A stretch of DNA of 45,119 bases, from sequence record OZ035746.1, one strand, 5' to 3'. The stretch comes from Dhillonvirus LM40P1. The position numbers were made by a program, and so were the translations under genes. Below, piece after piece: positions 5,796-40,451 of this stretch. The notes beneath the pieces were generated by a model, which saw only the letters and a list, made by a program, of their open reading frames with translations, was not told the origin of the DNA and ran no database searches. Positions within the stretch are counted from its first letter, which is position 1, and every line of letters begins with the position of its first letter.

Positions 5796-5825
5796 TGTTG
5801 TTTCCTCGTTTGTTGGTGTGCAACC

Positions 5826-5854
5826 AATATATTGCAACCAATTAGCCAATGCAA
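5826..5854 (-). promoter_or_regulatory. sigma70-like promoter TTGCAT-N17-TATATT (recurring promoter family)
   Basis: Minus-strand reading: TTGCAT (5854..5849), 17-nt spacer containing ATTGGTTGCA, TATATT (5831..5826); about 30 nt upstream of the ATG at 5795. Confidence 0.5.
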
Positions 5855-9965: not shown

Positions 9966-10691
9966 ATGGGTTATCAACTTCCTAACGGGTCCAGCGTCCA
10001 AATCGGGTCCGTACAGGGTGCAGGCATCGCAGTTACGGCAGCGTCGAACGCGGCGGCATCTATCAGCGACCTGACTCAAGGTTGCGTAATCACCTGCGCC
10101 GCTTCACATGGTCTGGCGGTTGGCGACGTGGTTATGTTCACGAAATCCCCGTGGGTCCGTGCGCTTAACCAGGCTTTCATCGTGGGTAAAGTAGACATCA
10201 ACGACGTGACGCTGGCGCGCTTCGACACGTCTGATACGACTAAGTATCCGAACGGTGCGTTCCAGGCAGGCACACCGGGTGAGGTCGTGAAGATTTCGAG
10301 CTTTATCGACTTCCCGTTTATCACCAACGTTGCCGTGTCCGGTGGCGACCAGCAGACGACGACCTTCCAGCCGTTGCAGGTGAATACCGCGATCAGTCTG
10401 AACACCACGAAAAACCCGTTGGTACAGACCTATACCTTCACCCACGACGAAGAAGACCCGATCCGTCCGATTCTGGAAGACCTGGACGACACGCAGAAGA
10501 CAACGGTAATTAAGTTCACTAACCCGGCAGCGTCCAGCGGTAGAGGTGAAATCCGTATCTATGCGGCTAAGGTGTCCTTCCAGAAGATTCCGTCTGCGGA
10601 AGTAAACAACGTCGAAACGGTACAATCCACTCTGACTATGCAGTCGGAAATGATGATTTACCGCAAAGACCTTGTTGAAGCCTTATCCTGA
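9966..10691 (+). CDS. major tail protein (putative)
   Basis: 241-aa ORF with AGGAG RBS, beta-rich, followed by a strong terminator and then the chaperone and tape-measure genes. Confidence 0.6.
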   Translation: MGYQLPNGSSVQIGSVQGAGIAVTAASNAAASISDLTQGCVITCAASHGLAVGDVVMFTKSPWVRALNQAFIVGKVDINDVTLARFDTSDTTKYPNGAFQAGTPGEVVKISSFIDFPFITNVAVSGGDQQTTTFQPLQVNTAISLNTTKNPLVQTYTFTHDEEDPIRPILEDLDDTQKTTVIKFTNPAASSGRGEIRIYAAKVSFQKIPSAEVNNVETVQSTLTMQSEMMIYRKDLVEALS

Positions 10692-10723
10692 TTTGGTCGG
10701 GTAAATGGCGAGTGTTAACATTG

Positions 10724-10743
10724 GGGGCGTAAGCCCCTTTTTT
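10724..10743 (+). terminator. intrinsic terminator after major tail gene
   Basis: GGGGC-GTAA-GCCCC hairpin followed by TTTTTT. Confidence 0.7.
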
Positions 10744-10758
10744 AATGGAGAGAATATC

Positions 10759-11121
10759 ATGGCTAAACAATCCCTTTTCACCCTCGACCCAAAACCGACT
10801 TTCAAGCTGCCGATTGAAATCCCGCGTCCGGGCGAGAAAGAGCCGGGTAAGCTGACTTTCACCGTCCGCCACCGTCCGATCGACGAGTTCTCGCAGACCA
10901 TGCAGGAGACTGAACGCAAGCTGTCAGAGTATGACCAGAATGACCCGGACGGCTTTAACGTTATGGTCGAGGCCATCATGCATGTGGCTGAAGGCTGGAA
11001 TCTGCCGGATGAGTTCACTGAAGAGAACGTACGCCGCCTGGTGGTGAACTATCCGCGTGCGTTCGGCGTGTTCCATACGTCGTACTATCTCGAATTGATG
11101 GGCTTGCGTGAAAAAAACTAA
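10759..11121 (+). CDS. tail assembly chaperone (gpG-like)
   Basis: ORF 10705..11121; ATG 10759 with GGAGAG RBS; ends at a slippery site immediately upstream of the tape-measure gene. Confidence 0.6.
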   Translation: MAKQSLFTLDPKPTFKLPIEIPRPGEKEPGKLTFTVRHRPIDEFSQTMQETERKLSEYDQNDPDGFNVMVEAIMHVAEGWNLPDEFTEENVRRLVVNYPRAFGVFHTSYYLELMGLREKN

Positions 11122-11435
11122 TTGAGGCGGCGCGACGCTTCTATGGTCCGCCGCCACCGTCCGAAGACCTTGCCGCTAGTTTATGGGGTGCGGCCCCCGA
11201 AGATATTTGTCCGCCAGTTGCATTATGGCCTGATAACGTACAGGTCGTTGCCGTTTTCACTGACTGCTCAACGCAGTGGCGCACCGGTTTTAACGGCGCA
11301 TACGGCATCGACTACGGCGTGCTGGAATGGCTATTTAAAATGCACGGCATCGAAAATGAGAAGCGCGCTTTTAAAGATATCAAGTTAATGGAGCGTATTG
11401 CACTCGACGAAATTGCAGCACAACAGGCCGGGTAA
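10759..11435 (+). CDS. tail assembly chaperone G-T fusion by -1 programmed frameshift
   Basis: Slippery heptamer A AAA AAC at 11112-11118; the -1 frame is open from 11118 to TAA 11433-11435 and encodes a plausible ~105-aa extension (KKLIEAARRFYGPPPPSEDLAASLWGAAPEDICPP...). This frame has no ATG, so the ORF track missed it. Confidence 0.5.
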
Positions 11436-11448
11436 TTCCGGCCTTTTT
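11426..11448 (+). terminator. intrinsic terminator after the G/GT gene
   Basis: GGCCGG-gTAATT-CCGGCC hairpin (the GT stop codon lies in the loop) followed by TTTTT. Confidence 0.6.
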
Positions 11449-11451
11449 CAT

Positions 11452-11771
11452 AGCGGGACAGCGGGACGTCCCGTTTTTATCCCGCTGTCCCTCCCAGCCA
11501 AAAACTGCATACCTATTCAGAAATACTGCATAAAACCAAAACGGGACAAAAACGGGACAAGCAGGACGTCCCGCCTCAAAAGTGCATATCTATGCAGTTT
11601 TCGTGCATAAAACGAACGGGACAAAAACGGGACAAATTGCAAGCGGGACAGAGCGGGACGTCCCGCCGTCCCTGCCAGAGCTGCCGCGGGTTTCAGCCGA
11701 TCGGGACAGGCGGGACAAAGCCCAGTCTTTCAGACTAGACGGGGGTCAATGGCCCCCTCCGTCTGAGACTG
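11452..11771. repeat. non-coding repeat module, copy A (about 1.5 units): CGGGACA(A) repeats, GGGACGTCCC palindromes, TGCATAAAAC boxes, long imperfect hairpin
   Basis: About 11 CGGGAC(A/G) copies, several in ACGGGACAAAAACGGGACAA doublets at 10-bp phase; GGGACGTCCCG at 11463, 11564, 11655; hairpin-forming CAGTCTTTCAGACTAGACGGGGG...GCCCCCTCCGTCTGAGACTG at 11722-11771. The 11603-11771 part is roughly 80% identical to 40066-40244. Confidence 0.7.
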
Positions 11772-11838
11772 AATAAGGTTGGTTGCAAAATGACTGATAC
11801 AATACAAACGGCAACTTGCATAAAAAGGGGACTGCATA

Positions 11839-14481
11839 ATGGCAGATCAAGCGGCAGGCATCACGCTAAAGGCGGATGTTGCACAAATCAGAACGGCGAA
11901 TACTGTGCTTGATTCATTCGCACAGAAATCCGAGAACACAGAAAACAAGGTTAAGAAATTAAACAACACCCTCGGCAACTCTAAAAAGGTGACGAGTGAT
12001 GCCGCTGGCGGAATGGAAAAGCTGGCGAACGAATCGCATCGAGCAGCCGATGGCATGACGAAACAGGAGCGACTCGCCAACCGGTTAGGCATGTCGACCA
12101 AAAACCTGGGCTTTGCCTCGCGTAACGCCGCATTCCAGTTACAGGATATAGCGGTTACGCTTGAGATGGGTATGCCGGTGCACCGCGTCATGCTTCAGCA
12201 GTTACCACAGCTTACTGGGGCGTTCGGTGGGTTTGGTAACACGCTGCGTTATGTTGCTGGCTTCCTCGGCCCAGTAGGGATCGGAATTGCAGCACTAACG
12301 GCAACGTTAGGCGTAGGGGTGGCAATTACGTCACGTGCCGAAAACCAGGTAGCAGCGCTTAACAAGACGCTGGCGCTATCCGGTAACATTTCCGGCCTAA
12401 CTGCAAACCAGATCCTGGTGCTATCCGAGAACGCCGAGCGCATGGGCGGGTCGTTCCGCAAGACGCGTGACACAATCCAGGCGCTGGCGGCGGCGGGTGT
12501 GAAAGCGGGTGCAGACTTCGGCACGCTGGCGAAAGTGGTGAATGATTTTGCGAAGGCGTCCAGCCAGCCGATCGAGGATGTGGTCGCGGCGGTGGCGAAG
12601 CTGTCTACCGACCCGGTAGGTGGCTTGCGAGCATTGGCTGATAAGTATCACGTCGTAAACGAAGCGCAGATCCAGCAGGTGCAGTCACTAGTGACGGCTG
12701 GTCGCGAAACCGAAGCGGTGGCGCTGGCTAACAAAACAGCCGCAGCGTCGTTTACCACTATGACCAATGAGATCAAGTCCAACATGGGTACGCTTGAGCG
12801 GTCGATGAACGTCGTTACATCGGCAGCTAAATCTATGTGGGATGCCATCCTGGATGTTGGACGCGCGCAGTCCTCGAATGAGTCAGAGATGAAAGCGCGT
12901 GAATCATTGCAGCGACTGACCACGGCTTACTATGCCGAGATGAAAGCGGTAAACGCTGCCGGTGGGGTGATGACCGAAGCGCAGAAAGCGCGTATTAACA
13001 TGCTTTACAGCGAACTGGTCGCCCAGGAGAAGGTGGTGGCGTCGCTCACCCTGCGCAACCGTGCCGAGCGGGACAACGCCAGCGCCGCGGACGCAGCAGC
13101 AAAGGCGAACGAAGAGGCAAACCGCACCGCCCGCGACCGCGCTGCGTTTGAGAAGGAGTACGCAACCAACGCGAAGAGGCGCGCCGACGAGATCGCCCGC
13201 CTCAATTTGCTTAATAAGCGCGGCGTGATTGACGAGAAAGAGCTTGCCGAGGCGGTGAAGCAGGTAAACGAGCGTTACAAAGACCCCGCCCCGAAGAAGG
13301 CCGCCGCTGTTCGAGTCGATGCCGGGCTGAAAATGCTGGAAGTAGCACGGAGCGAACTGGCACAGCTTCGTGAGTCTGGAAAGCAGATCGAAGCCAACTC
13401 CTCGACGCAGACCCGAACGCAACGCGCGCAAGCGGCCCTGAACAAGCTGATCGCGGATAATGAGCAGTTAATCGCCGCAAGCAAAGAAAGAGCACTAACG
13501 GCAGCCGAAAAGCAGCAGATGGTCGAATTCGGACGCGTGAAGGAAGTACGCGAGCAGATCGTCGAAGAAGCCAAATTGCTGGACGCGAAAGAGAAGCAGG
13601 TCAAGGCGCACGCGCAGATCGACGCCTTCGTTAAGAACCAGAACGCCGAGCTAAAAGCCACCGCGGCGGGCTATGCGCTTTCCACTCGCGAAGCGGCAAA
13701 CCTGCGTGAAGAATTGCAGCTAATTGACCGCCTGAAGCGGGTGGGCGCTAGTGATACCGATATTGATCTGGCGGTGTCTAAACTGCGCGAAGTGCAGGAA
13801 GCACAGACCGGTGCTAACGCCTCACTATGGGATGGATTCAGCCGTGGGCTTAAGGATAGCGTGGATGAAATGGGTAACGGCTATACGCAGATGGTATCGG
13901 CAACGAAATTTACATTCGGCGCTATGATGGACACGATGAATGAATTTTTCGAGACTGGTAAATTCAACGCGAAGGAAATGATTAAATCCATCCTGAGCGA
14001 ATTTATCAAGCTGGCTACCTCGCAGGCGTTCAAGTCCGTAATCAACGCATTCGGCGGTGACGGTGGGAAGAATGGTCTGTTCGGGGCAATCTTCTCCGGT
14101 CTGACGAAGAATGCCGACGGCGGAGCGTACGCTGGCGGCAACCTGTCCGCATATTCCGGTCAGATCGTAAGCCAGCCAACCTTTTTCAATTACGGCGTTA
14201 AGGCGTTCGCTAACGGCGCGGGATTGATGGGTGAGGCTGGGCCGGAGGCCATCATGCCGCTGAAGCGCGGGCCGGACGGTAAACTGGGCGTTGCCGCAAG
14301 TGGGGCTGGTGGTGGTATCGTCGTGACAACGAACGTGAACATGGGTACAGGGCAGGCTGACACCAGCGTTAAAGGGACCGACCCGCGAATGGGGCAGGTA
14401 TTCGGCAAGCAGATCACGGAAGCGGTTAAGGCCGAAATCGTGAAAGCGACTAAACCAGGTGGAGTACTTTACAAACGATGA
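11839..14481 (+). CDS. tail tape measure protein
   Basis: 880-aa ORF; long helical charged central region; C-terminal Gly-rich region; position between chaperone and tail-tip genes. Confidence 0.8.
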   Translation: MADQAAGITLKADVAQIRTANTVLDSFAQKSENTENKVKKLNNTLGNSKKVTSDAAGGMEKLANESHRAADGMTKQERLANRLGMSTKNLGFASRNAAFQLQDIAVTLEMGMPVHRVMLQQLPQLTGAFGGFGNTLRYVAGFLGPVGIGIAALTATLGVGVAITSRAENQVAALNKTLALSGNISGLTANQILVLSENAERMGGSFRKTRDTIQALAAAGVKAGADFGTLAKVVNDFAKASSQPIEDVVAAVAKLSTDPVGGLRALADKYHVVNEAQIQQVQSLVTAGRETEAVALANKTAAASFTTMTNEIKSNMGTLERSMNVVTSAAKSMWDAILDVGRAQSSNESEMKARESLQRLTTAYYAEMKAVNAAGGVMTEAQKARINMLYSELVAQEKVVASLTLRNRAERDNASAADAAAKANEEANRTARDRAAFEKEYATNAKRRADEIARLNLLNKRGVIDEKELAEAVKQVNERYKDPAPKKAAAVRVDAGLKMLEVARSELAQLRESGKQIEANSSTQTRTQRAQAALNKLIADNEQLIAASKERALTAAEKQQMVEFGRVKEVREQIVEEAKLLDAKEKQVKAHAQIDAFVKNQNAELKATAAGYALSTREAANLREELQLIDRLKRVGASDTDIDLAVSKLREVQEAQTGANASLWDGFSRGLKDSVDEMGNGYTQMVSATKFTFGAMMDTMNEFFETGKFNAKEMIKSILSEFIKLATSQAFKSVINAFGGDGGKNGLFGAIFSGLTKNADGGAYAGGNLSAYSGQIVSQPTFFNYGVKAFANGAGLMGEAGPEAIMPLKRGPDGKLGVAASGAGGGIVVTTNVNMGTGQADTSVKGTDPRMGQVFGKQITEAVKAEIVKATKPGGVLYKR

Positions 14482-21945: not shown

Positions 21946-21974
21946 AATATAGTGCAACCAATACGTGATTGCAA
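21946..21974 (-). promoter_or_regulatory. sigma70-like promoter TTGCAA-N17-TATATT (recurring family)
   Basis: Minus-strand reading: TTGCAA (21974..21969), 17-nt spacer containing ATTGGTTGCA, TATATT (21951..21946); about 30 nt upstream of the lipoprotein ATG. Confidence 0.5.
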
Positions 21975-21997
21975 CCAATTTATGAGGAGTTTTCGCT

Positions 21998-26341: not shown

Positions 26342-26370
26342 AATATAGTGCAACCAAATACGGATTGCAA
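26342..26370 (-). promoter_or_regulatory. sigma70-like promoter TTGCAA-N17-TATATT (recurring family)
   Basis: Minus-strand reading: TTGCAA (26370..26365), spacer containing TTGGTTGCA, TATATT (26347..26342); overlaps the 3' end of the upstream gene. Confidence 0.5.
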
Positions 26371-26374
26371 CCAA

Positions 26375-27805: not shown

Positions 27806-27834
27806 AATATAATGCAACCAATCTCGCAATGCAA
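27806..27834 (-). promoter_or_regulatory. sigma70-like promoter TTGCAT-N17-TATATT (recurring family)
   Basis: Minus-strand reading: TTGCAT (27834..27829), spacer containing ATTGGTTGCA, TATATT (27811..27806); predicted start falls inside the 5' arm of the terminator stem. Confidence 0.5.
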
Positions 27835-27839
27835 CCAAT

Positions 27840-28163
27840 TTATTCGAAGAAATTTGGGTCGCTCATCACATCCACAAGATAAAGGTTGTTAAGGCGGTTG
27901 CCGTAATGGCCTGGCGTGCGCTGACGGCACACAACAGCGTAACCAGGGGGGATGGTATTTCCGGTCGCCAGAATCCACGCCACGCGCGCGCCGTTTAGTG
28001 ATTTACCGTTGTATTCTATGCGGGTGCCGCCATCTGCAGTGTTAAGGCTGCCAATCTTCTGACCGGTAGAATTGAGACGGATAACACCAGTCTGGCTATC
28101 GTAATTAAACAGTTGTTTGGTCAGTGCTACCGAAAAATCAATTGGATCAAAGATAGTGTTCAT
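27840..28163 (-). CDS. HNH endonuclease-like protein (HNH_3/NUMOD4-like, catalytic His apparently absent)
   Basis: GAGGAAA RBS; segment ARVAWILATGNTIPPGYAVVCRQ...GNRLNNLYLV follows the HNH_3 pattern but the usual His-containing core is not evident. Confidence 0.4.
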   Translation of the reverse strand: MNTIFDPIDFSVALTKQLFNYDSQTGVIRLNSTGQKIGSLNTADGGTRIEYNGKSLNGARVAWILATGNTIPPGYAVVCRQRTPGHYGNRLNNLYLVDVMSDPNFFE

Positions 28164-34339: not shown

Positions 34340-34435
34340 TTTCCAATTCCTCATTTCACATGTATCGGGGTTATTATAAGCCACCCCGTCCGGCTTGGTT
34401 GCTAATGTACTTGGTTGCGTTTCCGCGGTCAAGTG

Positions 34436-37675: not shown

Positions 37676-39940
37676 ATGAGAAATATAGAATTTGCGATCA
37701 CACCTCCGGCAAAAAGGGGTGAATCAGCGGTAGCCCATAACCAATCCATGACTACCGCCGAGTTTTTCGAGTTTATGCTGGATGCGCCGGTAGTATCGTC
37801 AGTTTGCATTAACGGTACTGAAGATAAAAAAGAATATGCGCGACGTAAGCGTAAAGGCGACGGCATTGTGGCTACAACCGCCGATGGCACGCGTAAAAAG
37901 ACTGGCGTGGTTAGCCGCTCGATCCTGTTCTTCGACCTGGACCGTGCTGACAACCGCACACTTACCCGCTGCCGCAGGGCTTTCCGTAAGTCCGGCCTGG
38001 AATATGTCTACCACACCACCACCGGCGACCGCCACCCGTTGAAAGACGGCAAGCGCTGTGTGCGTTTCCTGGTGCTGACAAACAAGCCAGTTCCGGCGGA
38101 AGACTTGGGTCGCGCGCAGGCTGCACTGCTTGAGCAACTGGGTCTTACCGACGCGGGCTTTGATGACTGCTCGAAAGACACAAACCGCCTTATGTACCTG
38201 CCCCACCAGCAGGCTAAGGTCGAGTGTCATGAGGGTGAACGCGCTAACGTGCGTCGTCTGCTTCGCCTGGCTGACAAGATGGGTATTGAGCAGGAAACGT
38301 TTCGCCGTGAACTGGTGCAGGGCGACGACGAGCAGATGAACGGCATCCTCGACTGGTGTTTCCAGGCTGGTTTTGAGCCGTTACCATCCGGGCGCGGTTA
38401 TGAAGTACCGTGCCCAAACGAACATCTGCACTCTGGTGAAGGGTCTACCGCTATCATGCTTAAGGATGGCGAGATTCGTTTCAAATGTATGCACACCGGC
38501 AACGGATGCTGTTCTGAACTGAACAAACACCAACACCTGGCGCTGCGAATGATTGGTATCCCGGATATTTATAACGTGGAACCTCACAACATGTCGCGCA
38601 AACAGATCTCGGCAATCCTGCCCGGACTGGACGATGAAGAAGTGGACGCGCAGTATGAGCACATGGTCGATCTGGTTGGCGAAGGGGAGGATTATGCGTC
38701 CTGTACTGACGCAGACCTGGAAGACGAACCAACGGCACTGTTCTCTAAACACGACCCGATCATCGAAGGTCTGATTAACTTTAAATCGACCTGGTACGCA
38801 GCGGGTGAGTCGAACATTGGTAAGTCCTTCTTCGTCCTGGGTCAGATGGCTGCCGTTGCCGCTGGCATCCCGTTCGGCGGCGCGAAGGTCGTCCAGTCCC
38901 ATTGCTTCTACTTCGATGCGGAAGGTGGCGAGGCGTCCCACCAGCGTAAAGAAGCGTTGCAGATTAAATATGAGCACGACCTGGACAAGCTGCACATTAT
39001 CGACCTTCAGGCACGCGGCTGGGATATTACGAGCAAGTCCGGCCTGCGTGAAGTCATCAGCTTTATCAACCGCACCGCGGATGGGGAACCGGTCGGCCTG
39101 GTGGCGTTCGACTCCCTTAACCAGACCGTGGCCCTGCGCTCGGCAGATGCCAAACCGTTCGACGAGAACAACGCAAGCGATATGGGTGAGATTGTCAAAG
39201 CGCTGAAGTCCATTGCGGAAAACACAGGAGGCAGTGCGGGCGTCATTCACCACCCGGCGAAGGGTGCAAACGGCAGCCGATCCCCGCGTGGATCCGGTGC
39301 GCTACATGGCGCGGTGGATTCTGCATTCTTCCTGGAACAGCCAGACGAGAATCAGCCAGGCCAGCTTAACCTCTATCATGAGAAAGCCCGTAACGGCGTG
39401 AAACAGGGTCCGCGCGGCTTCGTGCTACTGAAGTGCAAAGTGTCCATTAACGAGCGCAAGTCCGACTCGTTCGAAGCACACCAGTCTACCAATCCGGGGC
39501 CAGACTTCGGCGATGTGGTTGCCGGTTGGGACGTAAAACCGATCCAGGCCACACCGCGCGACGAGACTCTGTACCTTGTTCCGGTAGCTCTGGCCCCGTT
39601 TGCTATCGAACAGGCTAAGGCGGCAGGCAAGCAGGCTGTTAAGGAAGAAAACCCCGCCGGTCCGCGCAATGAAAAAGAGAAAGTGCTTTACGCAGCGCTC
39701 GAAGCGTTGATGGAAGAGAATCCGGGACACCATGGCTTCAGCAAATCGGCAATCGTCCGCAAAGCCGGACTGGCGAAAGGTGGCACATCGACGAAGCCAA
39801 TAGACGATATGCGTGAGCGCGGAATCATCGGCTTTTACAAAGACCCTGACACCGGGGCCATTTACGGGTCGTCGAATCTGGTTATCAATTCACAAATACC
39901 TATGCAATTGACGGCGACGGATGATGATTTGAAAGATTAA
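37676..39940 (+). CDS. DNA primase-helicase (AEP-type primase-like N-terminus plus RecA/DnaB-like ATPase)
   Basis: 754-aa ORF; N-terminal FFDLDRAD motif; ATPase Walker A GESNIGKS and Walker B-like VAFDSL. Confidence 0.65.
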   Translation: MRNIEFAITPPAKRGESAVAHNQSMTTAEFFEFMLDAPVVSSVCINGTEDKKEYARRKRKGDGIVATTADGTRKKTGVVSRSILFFDLDRADNRTLTRCRRAFRKSGLEYVYHTTTGDRHPLKDGKRCVRFLVLTNKPVPAEDLGRAQAALLEQLGLTDAGFDDCSKDTNRLMYLPHQQAKVECHEGERANVRRLLRLADKMGIEQETFRRELVQGDDEQMNGILDWCFQAGFEPLPSGRGYEVPCPNEHLHSGEGSTAIMLKDGEIRFKCMHTGNGCCSELNKHQHLALRMIGIPDIYNVEPHNMSRKQISAILPGLDDEEVDAQYEHMVDLVGEGEDYASCTDADLEDEPTALFSKHDPIIEGLINFKSTWYAAGESNIGKSFFVLGQMAAVAAGIPFGGAKVVQSHCFYFDAEGGEASHQRKEALQIKYEHDLDKLHIIDLQARGWDITSKSGLREVISFINRTADGEPVGLVAFDSLNQTVALRSADAKPFDENNASDMGEIVKALKSIAENTGGSAGVIHHPAKGANGSRSPRGSGALHGAVDSAFFLEQPDENQPGQLNLYHEKARNGVKQGPRGFVLLKCKVSINERKSDSFEAHQSTNPGPDFGDVVAGWDVKPIQATPRDETLYLVPVALAPFAIEQAKAAGKQAVKEENPAGPRNEKEKVLYAALEALMEENPGHHGFSKSAIVRKAGLAKGGTSTKPIDDMRERGIIGFYKDPDTGAIYGSSNLVINSQIPMQLTATDDDLKD

Positions 39941-39945
39941 TTTTT

Positions 39946-40028
39946 GCGCGCATTGGTTGCCAATATGGTTAATTTGTGCGCGCATTGGTTGCCAGATTGG
40001 GCATTAAATCTATATCGCATTGGTTGCC
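39946..40028 (+). repeat. three direct iterons GCGCGCATTGGTTGCC(A)
   Basis: 39946-39962 and 39978-39994 are identical 17-mers; a shorter third copy TCGCATTGGTTGCC lies at 40015-40028; spacing about 32 and 35 bp. Confidence 0.65.
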
Positions 40029-40065
40029 GTGTAGTGCTAAATAAGTGAATAGTTATGCAAAATAA

Positions 40066-40244
40066 GTGCATAAAACAAACGGGACAAAAACGGGACAAAC
40101 GACAAACGGGACAAAACGGGACGTCCCGCCGTCCCCCTCAGGAGTGGCGCGGGTTTGAGGCAAACGGGACAAGCGGGACAGACCACAGTCTTTCAGACTA
40201 GACGGGGGGTATTGTCCCCCCTCCGTCTGAGACTGCATAAAATC
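40066..40244. repeat. non-coding repeat module, copy B
   Basis: GTGCATAAAACAAACGGGACAAAAACGGGACAA..., GGGACGTCCCGCC at 40119-40131, hairpin CAGTCTTTCAGACTAGACGGGGGG...CCCCCCTCCGTCTGAGACTG; same order and orientation as 11603-11771. Confidence 0.7.
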
Positions 40245-40394
40245 TCTGGTTGCATAATCAACGGCAGCATAGTGAAAAATGCGGCGGGGGTAGATCTCGG
40301 CAACCAATGCGAGTTGAAGAGTGGAGAGTGAAAAATGCAGTTTGCAATTGCAACTCATAGCGATCAGCATTTTCATGCGCGTGATTAATATTGG

Positions 40395-40423
40395 TTGCAT
40401 TCGTCCTGCCAGGGTGTTAGATT
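40395..40423 (+). promoter_or_regulatory. promoter of the recurring family, plus orientation (TTGCAT-N17-TAGATT)
   Basis: ATTGGTTGCAT at 40390-40400 and TAGATTGGTTGCA at 40418-40430; about 30 nt upstream of the ATG at 40452. Confidence 0.4.
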
Positions 40424-40451
40424 GGTTGCACACCAACATGAGGACTGAACG

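What the first reader, a model, noticed from the sequence alone, without database searches (positions are those of the whole stretch)
11112..11435. Programmed -1 frameshift (A AAA AAC) giving a G-T chaperone fusion that the ORF track misses
The chaperone gene ends at a textbook slippery heptamer (A AAA AAC, 11112-11118). The -1 frame is then open for about 105 codons to TAA at 11433-11435 and encodes a plausible protein. The ORF track only shows a junk Arg-rich read-through ORF in the other frame (11122-11388). The G/GT frameshift upstream of the tape-measure gene is a conserved feature of long-tailed phages, and its presence supports the annotation of the whole tail module.
Basis: partly seen in the sequence, partly recalled or inferred. 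Interest (0 to 1): 0.4.

Follow-up and report, generated by a model that had tools for sequence, protein, structure and literature searches.

The report
Tail chaperone G-T frameshift site
This is the usual programmed -1 ribosomal frameshift that lets a long-tailed phage make a short and a long tail-assembly chaperone from one gene; it is real and well conserved, but it is an ordinary, known kind of feature that the database records checked here leave unannotated.

Summary
The window is a Dhillonvirus genome (an E. coli siphophage). The chaperone gene G (10759-11121, Pfam Phage_TAC_4) ends in A_AAA_AAC (11112-11118), followed directly by TAA. The -1 frame is closed by TGA at 11109-11111 and then open to TAA at 11433-11435. 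The two frames therefore overlap by only 10 nt, and the heptamer lies inside that overlap. The -1 extension (105 codons) is a full DUF1799 domain with no usable start codon of its own. Among 17 Dhillonvirus sequences, variable sites fall on codon position 3 of that frame (21/9/69). The ORF at 11122-11388 lies in G's own frame after the stop. It varies mostly at its codon position 2 and matches no family, so it is not coding. In 29 of 30 related loci that carry both G and T (27-100% identity), plus phage T1, an in-frame heptamer sits on the last two sense codons of G and T is in the -1 frame. The heptamer is A_AAA_AAC in most and G_GGA_AAC in Pseudomonas and Ralstonia phages. A GC-rich hairpin starts 7 nt downstream; it shows compensatory changes and invariant synonymous sites. 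The mechanism matches lambda G/GT, but the protein families differ from lambda's. None of the 15 annotated relatives' records checked carries the joined CDS. Low novelty.

The parts
9966..10691 (+). Tail tube (major tail) gene, immediately upstream of G
   Evidence: Pfam Phage_tail_3, E 4.2e-32
10723..10745 (+). Terminator-like hairpin plus T run between the tube gene and G
   Evidence: GGGGGCGTAAGCCCCT followed by TTTTTT. T1 has an annotated terminator at the same place
10759..11121 (+). Gene G, tail assembly chaperone, 120 aa (0-frame product). RBS GGAGAG at 10747-10752
   Evidence: Pfam Phage_TAC_4 1-120 against profile 1-124 of 124, E 1.2e-24. phrog_569, E 1.4e-40. Variable sites by codon position 11/6/73
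11109..11111 (+). TGA that closes the -1 frame just upstream of the heptamer. It sets the 5' limit of the shift window
11112..11118 (+). Slippery heptamer A_AAA_AAC (Lys-Asn, the last two sense codons of G)
   Evidence: Invariant in 17 Dhillonvirus sequences. Conserved, or replaced by G_GGA_AAC, in 29 of 30 related loci with both G and T, and in T1
11119..11121 (+). 0-frame stop codon of G (TAA; TGA in some relatives), directly after the heptamer
11126..11155 (+). GC-rich hairpin (GGCGGCG / CGCCGCC arms) starting 7 nt after the heptamer. Candidate frameshift stimulator
   Evidence: -20 kcal/mol, z -2.37, 3 of 200 shuffles fold as well. Same position in relatives, with GGCGGUU/AACCGCC in Drexlerviridae. 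The 5 synonymous sites in the arms are invariant
11118..11435 (+). T segment in the -1 frame: 105 codons plus TAA. The GT fusion is join(10759..11118,11118..11435), 225 aa
   Evidence: Pfam DUF1799 profile 1-80 of 80, E 7.9e-21. phrog_680, E 5.5e-30. phrog_17368 spans both G and T. Variable sites 21/9/69 by codon position. No ORF of 40 aa or more with its own start in this frame
11122..11388 (+). Non-coding ORF in G's frame after the stop (the 'junk' ORF)
   Evidence: No Pfam or PHROG match. Variable sites peak at its codon position 2: 4/56/16. Its ATG-started inner part (11143-11388 in window coordinates) is annotated as 'major tail protein' in phage Ioannina
11425..11449 (+). Terminator-like hairpin straddling the T stop codon
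   Evidence: AGGCCGGGTAATTCCGGCCT followed by TTTTC. T1 has an annotated terminator right after its T ORF
11839..14481 (+). Tape-measure gene, the presumed client of G and GT
   Evidence: Pfam TMP_2, E 1.5e-43, and Tape_meas_lam_C, E 1.7e-11

Best explanation
This is a programmed -1 ribosomal frameshift in the tail assembly chaperone gene of a Dhillonvirus.

Most ribosomes translate G (10759-11118), read AAA-AAC as Lys-Asn, and stop at TAA, giving the 120-aa chaperone G. A minority slip. With tRNA-Lys on AAA and tRNA-Asn on AAC, they move back one base on A_AAA_AAC, re-pair with AAA-AAA, and continue with CUA AUU GAG... to TAA at 11433-11435. That gives the 225-aa fusion GT (...LREKN-LIEAARR...), whose C-terminal part is a DUF1799 'T' domain.

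The adjacent stop codon and the hairpin 7 nt downstream (11126-11155) probably pause the ribosome and set the shift rate. The rate is expected to be a few per cent.

By analogy with lambda, G and the G part of GT coat the tape-measure protein. The T part recruits the tail tube protein, and neither ends up in the virion.

Shown here: the sequence anatomy, the family assignments, purifying selection on the -1 frame, conservation of the heptamer and the frame relation, and conservation of the hairpin. Inferred: that shifting actually occurs, its efficiency, the role of the hairpin and stop codon, and the protein functions.
For: Anatomy. The two frames overlap by only 10 nt, and the heptamer fills that overlap in the correct register.

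Family assignments. G is Phage_TAC_4 and T is DUF1799, both full length. phrog_17368 covers G and T in one profile.

No independent start. The T frame has no start codon that would leave 40 aa or more, while the DUF1799 match begins 25 residues into the frame.

Selection. Across 17 Dhillonvirus sequences, variable sites by codon position are 11/6/73 in G and 21/9/69 in the T frame. In the alternative frame they are 9/69/21.

Conservation. In 29 of 30 related loci carrying both G and T, plus T1, an in-frame X_XXY_YYZ sits on the last two sense codons of G, followed by a stop, and T is always in the -1 frame. The heptamer is AAAAAAC in Dhillonvirus, in relatives about 60% identical, and in Drexlerviridae. 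It is GGGAAAC in Pseudomonas and Ralstonia phages.

Diverse representatives. In a library clustered at 50% identity, 149 of the 150 best hits are G-only (typically ending at or near query residue 120) or T-only. Of 61 G-like representatives, 32 end in -KN and 5 in -GN.

Hairpin. It gives -20 kcal/mol with z -2.4. It sits at the same 7-nt spacing in relatives, with 82% of cells paired against 27-66% in the slid controls, and both-sided changes at two pairs. All 5 synonymous sites in the stem arms are invariant, against 71 of 105 variable overall (about 0.003 by my hypergeometric arithmetic).

Synteny. The order is terminator protein, tube, G/T, tape measure, then M-, L- and K-like genes.

General biology of G/GT: PMC5009743.
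Against: There is no experimental evidence for this phage or genus; I found no paper reporting it.

In E. coli, A_AAA_AAC is reported to be much less shift-prone than A_AAA_AAG (PMC5009743). The efficiency may therefore be low and depend on the stimulators.

The hairpin evidence is modest. The 89-nt context is not more stable than shuffles (z -0.56). The covariation rests essentially on a difference between two clades. The 3' arm encodes Pro-Pro, which is also conserved at the protein level.

One relative, Klebsiella phage PMBT64, lacks a canonical heptamer and has CAA AAG CCT TAA.

The AlphaFold model of GT was too poor (pLDDT 54) to test the fold.
Confidence: 0.9

Rival explanations
1. The fusion arises by transcriptional slippage rather than ribosomal slippage. 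RNA polymerase adds one extra A in the run of seven A's (11111-11117), and the edited mRNA encodes the G-T fusion in a single frame (...REKK-LIEAARR...).
For: The site contains a run of 7 A's. Insertion of one A would put T in frame. Transcriptional slippage on A or T runs is known in bacteria (PMC5009743).
Against: Relatives in Pseudomonas and Ralstonia phages have G_GGA_AAC at exactly the same position. That sequence keeps the tandem-slippage pattern but has only three A's, too few for polymerase slippage. From my own knowledge, seven A's is shorter than the runs usually needed for appreciable slippage, which are about nine or more. The conserved hairpin at 7 nt fits a ribosomal stimulator.
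Confidence: 0.04
2. T is made as a separate protein, not as a fusion. Ribosomes either re-initiate after terminating at TAA (for example at AUU 11121-11123) or start at an internal start codon.
For: Many database records annotate a short separate T ORF from an internal start. An AUU overlaps the stop codon here.
Against: In this window no ATG, GTG or TTG in the T frame leaves 40 aa or more. The DUF1799 match starts at residue 25 of the frame. The AUU is not conserved: Drexlerviridae have CUA AAA CGG there. Residues straight after the junction (LIEAARR) are conserved in relatives down to about 40% identity, and synonymous sites there are frozen. No Shine-Dalgarno sequence precedes the frame. 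This reading would leave the heptamer's conservation unexplained.
Confidence: 0.03
3. The stretch after G codes in G's own frame. Either 11122-11388 is an independent gene, as the Ioannina record has it, or it is a stop-codon read-through extension, and the -1 ORF is an accident.
For: An 88-aa TTG-started ORF exists there. Its inner part is annotated 'major tail protein' in phage Ioannina.
Against: It matches no Pfam or PHROG family. Variable sites peak at its codon position 2 (4/56/16), the opposite of a coding pattern. The -1 frame has a full-length family match and a coding substitution pattern.
Confidence: 0.01

Closest known systems
Phage lambda G / GT programmed -1 frameshift (Levin, Hendrix and Casjens 1993; Xu, Hendrix and Duda 2004, 2013, 2014; as reviewed in PMC5009743)
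   Same: Two overlapping ORFs lie between the major tail gene and the tape-measure gene. The upstream ORF is a tail assembly chaperone. The downstream ORF is in the -1 frame and has no start of its own. An X_XXY_YYZ heptamer sits near the 3' end of G. The expected outcome is abundant G and rare GT.
   Different: There is no detectable sequence similarity (BLASTP E 9.2 and 0.23). The Pfam families differ: Phage_TAC_4 and DUF1799 here, Phage_TAC_2 and Phage_tail_T in lambda. The heptamer is A_AAA_AAC rather than G_GGA_AAG. It abuts the stop codon, whereas lambda has five more sense codons after it. A conserved hairpin lies 7 nt downstream. T is followed by a terminator-like hairpin and a 400-bp repeat-filled gap, instead of overlapping the tape-measure gene.
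G/T pair of phage T1 and other Drexlerviridae (ST40/ST39 in NC_005833; 'TfmA/TfmS' in some records)
   Same: Same protein families, at 27-41% identity. Same A_AAA_AAC plus TAA, same 7-nt spacer, same GGCGG...CCGCC hairpin, and terminators on both sides of the pair.
   Different: The overlap of the two frames is longer there (43-85 nt, against 10 nt here). The inner stem pairs are U-A instead of C-G and G-C. The gap to the tape-measure gene is about 40 nt there and 400 nt here.
E. coli dnaX -1 frameshift cassette (A_AAA_AAG with an upstream Shine-Dalgarno-like element and a downstream hairpin)
   Same: An A-rich heptamer decoded by tRNA-Lys, with a stable GC-rich hairpin a few nucleotides downstream (PMC5009743).
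   Different: The last codon is AAC (Asn), not AAG. I saw no Shine-Dalgarno-like element upstream, though I did not search for one systematically. The shifted frame here runs on for 105 codons to add a domain, whereas, from my own knowledge, in dnaX it stops almost at once.

Membership tests
Long-tailed phage G/GT tail assembly chaperone frameshift (Xu et al. 2004 type) | Two ORFs located between the major tail (tube) gene and the tape-measure gene | tested here: met
   Tube gene 9966-10691 (Phage_tail_3), G 10759-11121, T to 11435, tape measure 11839-14481 (TMP_2)
Long-tailed phage G/GT tail assembly chaperone frameshift (Xu et al. 2004 type) | The upstream ORF belongs to a tail assembly chaperone family | tested here: met
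   Pfam Phage_TAC_4, 87.3 bits against a cut-off of 21.1, full length
Long-tailed phage G/GT tail assembly chaperone frameshift (Xu et al. 2004 type) | The downstream ORF overlaps G in another frame, lacks its own initiation site, and is under protein-level selection | tested here: met
   -1 frame with a 10-nt overlap and no start leaving 40 aa or more. DUF1799, E 7.9e-21. Variable sites 21/9/69 by codon position
Long-tailed phage G/GT tail assembly chaperone frameshift (Xu et al. 2004 type) | A slippery sequence in the correct register inside the overlap, conserved among relatives | tested here: met
   A_AAA_AAC at 11112-11118. 29 of 30 related loci with both G and T, plus T1, carry AAAAAAC or GGGAAAC at the homologous place
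Long-tailed phage G/GT tail assembly chaperone frameshift (Xu et al. 2004 type) | Both G and GT are made, at a fixed ratio of about 30:1 in lambda | not testable with these tools
   Needs proteomics, western blotting or a reporter assay
Long-tailed phage G/GT tail assembly chaperone frameshift (Xu et al. 2004 type) | Both products are required for tail assembly and absent from virions; G binds the tape measure and T binds the tube protein | not testable with these tools
   Inferred from lambda only (PMC5009743)
Lambda gpG / gpT sequence families (Pfam Phage_TAC_2, Phage_tail_T) | Sequence membership in these two Pfam families | tested here: not met
   The window proteins hit Phage_TAC_4 and DUF1799 instead. 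Lambda G and T hit Phage_TAC_2 and Phage_tail_T. Pairwise BLASTP gives E 9.2 and 0.23
Tail assembly chaperone fold | A three-dimensional fold shared with solved tail assembly chaperone structures | tested here: inconclusive
   No solved relative by sequence (best E 0.99). The AlphaFold2 model from a 4-sequence alignment had mean pLDDT 53.9, so I ran no fold search
Structured -1 frameshift cassettes (heptamer plus downstream stem-loop) | A stable stem-loop 5-9 nt after the heptamer, maintained by compensatory change | tested here: met
   7-nt spacer, -20 kcal/mol, z -2.37. 82% of cells paired, 4 pairs with both-sided changes, 0 of 500 shuffles reaching the covariation score, though the -1 slid control gave nearly the same covariation score (0.251 against 0.253). 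The changes amount to few independent events. Synonymous sites in the arms are invariant. A stimulatory function is not shown

The most novel reading that the evidence does not exclude
The whole Phage_TAC_4/DUF1799 lineage (Dhillonvirus, T1-like Drexlerviridae and more distant relatives) uses a compact, fixed cassette: heptamer on the last two sense codons of G, then the stop codon, then a 7-nt spacer, then a GGCGG/CCGCC hairpin. In this reading the adjacent stop and the structured RNA are true stimulators that compensate for a heptamer (A_AAA_AAC) that is intrinsically weak in E. coli. That would make it a structured G-T frameshift signal, unlike lambda's, which to my recollection needs no simple downstream structure. 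It would also be a handy natural model for stop-codon-assisted -1 frameshifting in bacteria.
Probability: 0.45. Interest if true: 0.3.

Novelty: new member of a known kind. Interest (0 to 1): 0.2.

Why it matters
The main value is for annotation. None of the 15 annotated records of relatives that I opened, including T1's, carries a joined G-T coding sequence. Some annotate truncated T fragments. The closest annotated relative, Ioannina, labels a non-coding ORF in the wrong frame as 'major tail protein'. Correcting this gives the genus a complete tail-assembly gene set and a 225-aa protein that current gene calls lack.

Biologically it adds one more well-documented case to the rule that long-tailed phages make G and GT by frameshifting. 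It also supplies a conserved heptamer-stop-hairpin cassette that could be used to study how weak slippery sites are boosted in bacteria.

Tried and rejected
- **Structure route.** AlphaFold2 on GT with the only admissible alignment (4 sequences) gave pLDDT 53.9. I ran no fold search because the matches would be meaningless. Sequence searches of the PDB and NCBIfam found nothing.
- **Word-indexed protein search.** It returned only 3 homologues and no fused protein. Two of them still served as relatives of intermediate identity.
- **Rfam.** Nothing credible in 10600-11900; the best match had E 0.55.
- **Folding the 89-nt context.** It is not more stable than shuffles (z -0.56). Only the isolated hairpin stands out.
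- **Literature.** Searches for a report of this frameshift in Dhillonvirus, HK578 or Drexlerviridae found none.
- **A second heptamer candidate.** The one near 28160 on the minus strand, with 107 open codons after it, is an ATGA-coupled gene start with its own RBS.
- **A labelling error of mine.** I first called the ORF at 11122-11388 '+1 frame'. It is in fact in G's own frame. The counts are unaffected.

Full report
**What the window is.** The region is 99.6-99.7% identical to Dhillonvirus LM40P1 and Escherichia phage Ioannina, and about 82% identical to some 150 other Dhillonvirus genomes. The window coordinates coincide with those of LM40P1. The window therefore looks like a complete genome of an E. 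coli siphophage of about 45 kb.

**Checking the observation.**
- The G frame reads ...CGT GAA AAA AAC TAA. AAAAAAC thus occupies 11112-11118 in the X_XXY_YYZ register, and TAA occupies 11119-11121.
- In the -1 frame there is a TGA at 11109-11111. The frame is then open to 11432 and stops at TAA 11433-11435.
- The two frames overlap by only 10 nt, and the heptamer fills that overlap. If the downstream frame is expressed as an extension of G, the shift can only happen there.
It lies in G's own frame directly after the stop.
- AAAAAAC occurs three times in the window, against 9.0 expected.
- A scan of all ORFs of at least 100 aa on both strands found no other in-frame heptamer that abuts a stop and opens a long ORF lacking a start. 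The only look-alike, on the minus strand near 28160, is an ATGA-coupled gene with its own ribosome-binding site.

**What the two ORFs encode.**
- From ATG 10759 (GGAGAG 6 nt upstream), G is 120 aa. It matches Pfam Phage_TAC_4 over its whole length (E 1.2e-24) and phrog_569.
- The longer ORF from 10705 would run through a terminator-like hairpin at 10723-10738. Homologues begin at the equivalent of 10759.
- The -1 extension matches Pfam DUF1799 over the whole 80-position profile (E 7.9e-21) and phrog_680 (E 5.5e-30). phrog_17368 matches G with its first half and T with its second half.
- The ORF after the stop matches nothing.
- The neighbours are a tail terminator protein, the tail tube protein, the tape measure, and M-, L- and K-like minor tail proteins. 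This is the standard siphophage order, with G/T in the standard slot.

**Is the -1 frame really coding?** I aligned 17 Dhillonvirus sequences without gaps and counted variable sites by codon position.

| Region and frame | Position 1 | Position 2 | Position 3 |
|---|---|---|---|
| G, its own frame | 11 | 6 | 73 |
| T region, -1 frame | 21 | 9 | 69 |
| T region, G's frame | 9 | 69 | 21 |
| ORF 11122-11388, its own frame | 4 | 56 | 16 |

The -1 frame shows the signature of purifying selection on a protein. The ORF after the stop shows the opposite pattern. The -1 frame has no ATG, GTG or TTG that would leave 40 aa or more, while the DUF1799 match begins 25 residues into it. Independent initiation therefore cannot make the domain.

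**Conservation of the site.**
- I examined 30 related loci that carry both G and T. They comprised 19 Dhillonvirus loci, three metagenomic loci (two distinct phage sequences) with about 60% identity in G, seven Drexlerviridae-type and allied loci, and three Pseudomonas or Ralstonia phages. G identity ranged down to 27%.
- T is in the -1 frame in every one. In 29 of them an in-frame heptamer occupies the last two sense codons of G and is followed at once by TAA or TGA. It is AAAAAAC in 26 loci and GGGAAAC in the three Pseudomonas and Ralstonia phages.
- Phage T1 itself has GCA AAA AAC TAA.
- The single exception, Klebsiella phage PMBT64, ends in CAA AAG CCT TAA.
- A full HMMER scan of 1.84 billion representatives gave 1,067 hits. 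Of the 150 best, 149 are G-only (typically ending at or near query residue 120) or T-only, and one (P0013, 206 aa) is an in-frame fusion.
- Of 61 G-like representatives, 32 end in -KN and 5 in -GN, the dipeptides encoded by the two heptamers.
- T-only gene calls that start upstream of the junction read KKL or GKL, which are the heptamers read in the -1 frame.
- GGGAAAC keeps the tandem-slippage pattern without a long A run. This argues for ribosomal slippage and against transcriptional slippage as the family's mechanism.

**A likely stimulator.**
- Seven nucleotides after the heptamer lies a hairpin at 11126-11155, with arms GGCGGCG and CGCCGCC. It gives -20 kcal/mol, z -2.37, and 3 of 200 shuffles fold as well. 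The wider 89-nt context is not exceptional (z -0.56).
- RNAfold places a hairpin starting 6-7 nt after the heptamer in all Dhillonvirus sequences folded and in most of the others. In 2006III, PaeD14H and phiAH14a the stem columns largely fail to pair. In Drexlerviridae the arms read GGCGGUU and AACCGCC.
- On a gap-free 13-sequence alignment, 82% of cells pair, against 27-66% when the partner is slid. Four pairs show changes on both sides, and no shuffle reaches the observed covariation score. The -1 slid control scored almost as high on covariation alone (0.251 against 0.253).
- Within Dhillonvirus, positions 11107-11132 are invariant except for the TAA/TGA alternation. All five synonymous sites inside the stem arms are invariant, although 71 of 105 third positions of T vary. 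My hypergeometric arithmetic puts that at about 0.003.
- This is good but not conclusive evidence. The compensatory changes amount to few independent events, and the 3' arm encodes a conserved Pro-Pro.

**Comparison with the known system.**
- Lambda's G_GGA_AAG lies five sense codons before G's stop.
- Lambda G and T belong to Phage_TAC_2 and Phage_tail_T. They show no pairwise similarity to the proteins here.
- This site therefore works like lambda G/GT and meets every sequence-level criterion of the conserved G/GT frameshift. It is nonetheless a member of a different chaperone/T family pair, the one used by T1-like phages.
- The review PMC5009743 summarises the lambda biology. G and GT are made at about 30:1. 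G and the G part of GT bind the tape measure, and T binds the major tail protein. Neither is in the virion.
- The same review notes that A_AAA_AAC is much less shift-prone than A_AAA_AAG in E. coli. That fits a low shift rate and perhaps a need for stimulators.

**Annotation state.** None of the 15 annotated relatives' records I opened has a joined coding sequence.
- Ioannina annotates the inner part of the non-coding ORF (11143-11388 in window coordinates) as 'major tail protein', and also a minus-strand ORF.
- 'rolling' leaves the T region empty.
- T1 and several others annotate a truncated T from an internal start.
- I found no paper describing the frameshift for Dhillonvirus.

**Verdict.** The feature is a textbook-type G-T frameshift: a new, unannotated member of a known kind. 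Its interest is low apart from the annotation fix and the conserved heptamer-stop-hairpin cassette.

Noticed in passing
window 11436-11838 and 40050-40260: The 400-bp gap between T and the tape-measure gene is non-coding and packed with CGGGAC motifs. Thirteen of the window's 36 copies lie at 11454-11716, some as AACGGGACAAAAACGGGACAA units and some as GGGACGTCCC palindromes. The gap ends in a long hairpin at about 11719-11780 (101-nt context -38 kcal/mol, z -2.85). About 210 nt of it (11580-11790) recur at 83% identity at 40050-40260, just after the helicase-primase gene. The CGGGAC cluster is present in all 16 Dhillonvirus loci checked, and the gap is absent from Drexlerviridae (about 40 nt there). 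There is no Rfam match and the function is unknown; it may be a regulatory or protein-binding array.
   Followed up: partly
window, 23 sites (e.g. 5820-5841, 21954-21978, 26350-26374, 27814-27838, 34395-34418, 39953-40027, 40391-40429, 11779-11786): The octamer TTGGTTGC occurs 23 times against 2.3 expected, and 0 of 100 shuffles reach that. It often comes in pairs 14-17 nt apart in intergenic spots. The context TTGGTTGCAa-N-TTGGTTGCActatatt reads like a sigma-70 promoter (TTGCAA, 17 nt, TATATT) with the octamer at -35 and again in the spacer. These may be the phage's promoters with a built-in operator. One single copy lies 53 nt upstream of the tape-measure start.
   Followed up: partly
window 39947-40030: Three direct repeats of GCGCATTGGTTGCC, about 32-35 nt apart, lie in the 510-bp non-coding region after the helicase-primase gene (37676-39940). 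Inverted copies lie near 40300. The arrangement looks like iterons, so this may be an origin or control region.
   Followed up: no
window 10723-10745 and 11425-11449: Terminator-like hairpins with T runs bracket the G-T pair, one after the tube gene and one straddling the T stop codon. T1's record annotates rho-independent terminators at both equivalent places. This suggests stepwise attenuation of transcription along the tail operon.
   Followed up: partly
L001 (Escherichia phage Ioannina OQ589852) 1942-2189; window 11122-11388: The closest annotated relative labels the inner part of the non-coding ORF after G's stop as 'major tail protein' and also annotates a minus-strand ORF across the T region. 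It starts G at the upstream ATG (equivalent to window 10705) rather than at the RBS-preceded ATG (10759). These are probably misannotations.
   Followed up: yes
L027 (Klebsiella phage PMBT64) about 1860-1878: This is the only relative without a canonical heptamer. G ends in CGC CAA AAG CCT TAA, with T still in the -1 frame. It may shift on A_AAG by single-tRNA slippage.
   Followed up: no
L019 (IMGVR_UViG_3300037585_004319) 1878-2614: A distant G homologue shares the GWNLPDEFTEENV motif. It ends in AAG CGG AAA TAG without a canonical heptamer. It is followed by a 145-codon open -1 frame that tblastn did not match to the T domain used here. This may be the same chaperone paired with a different T-type extension.
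   Followed up: partly
protein P0013 (206 aa, from the representative library): This is the single in-frame G-T fusion among the 150 best representatives. It lacks the last roughly 15 residues of G and the heptamer. It could be a natural fusion, a sequencing error or an annotated slippage product.
   Followed up: no
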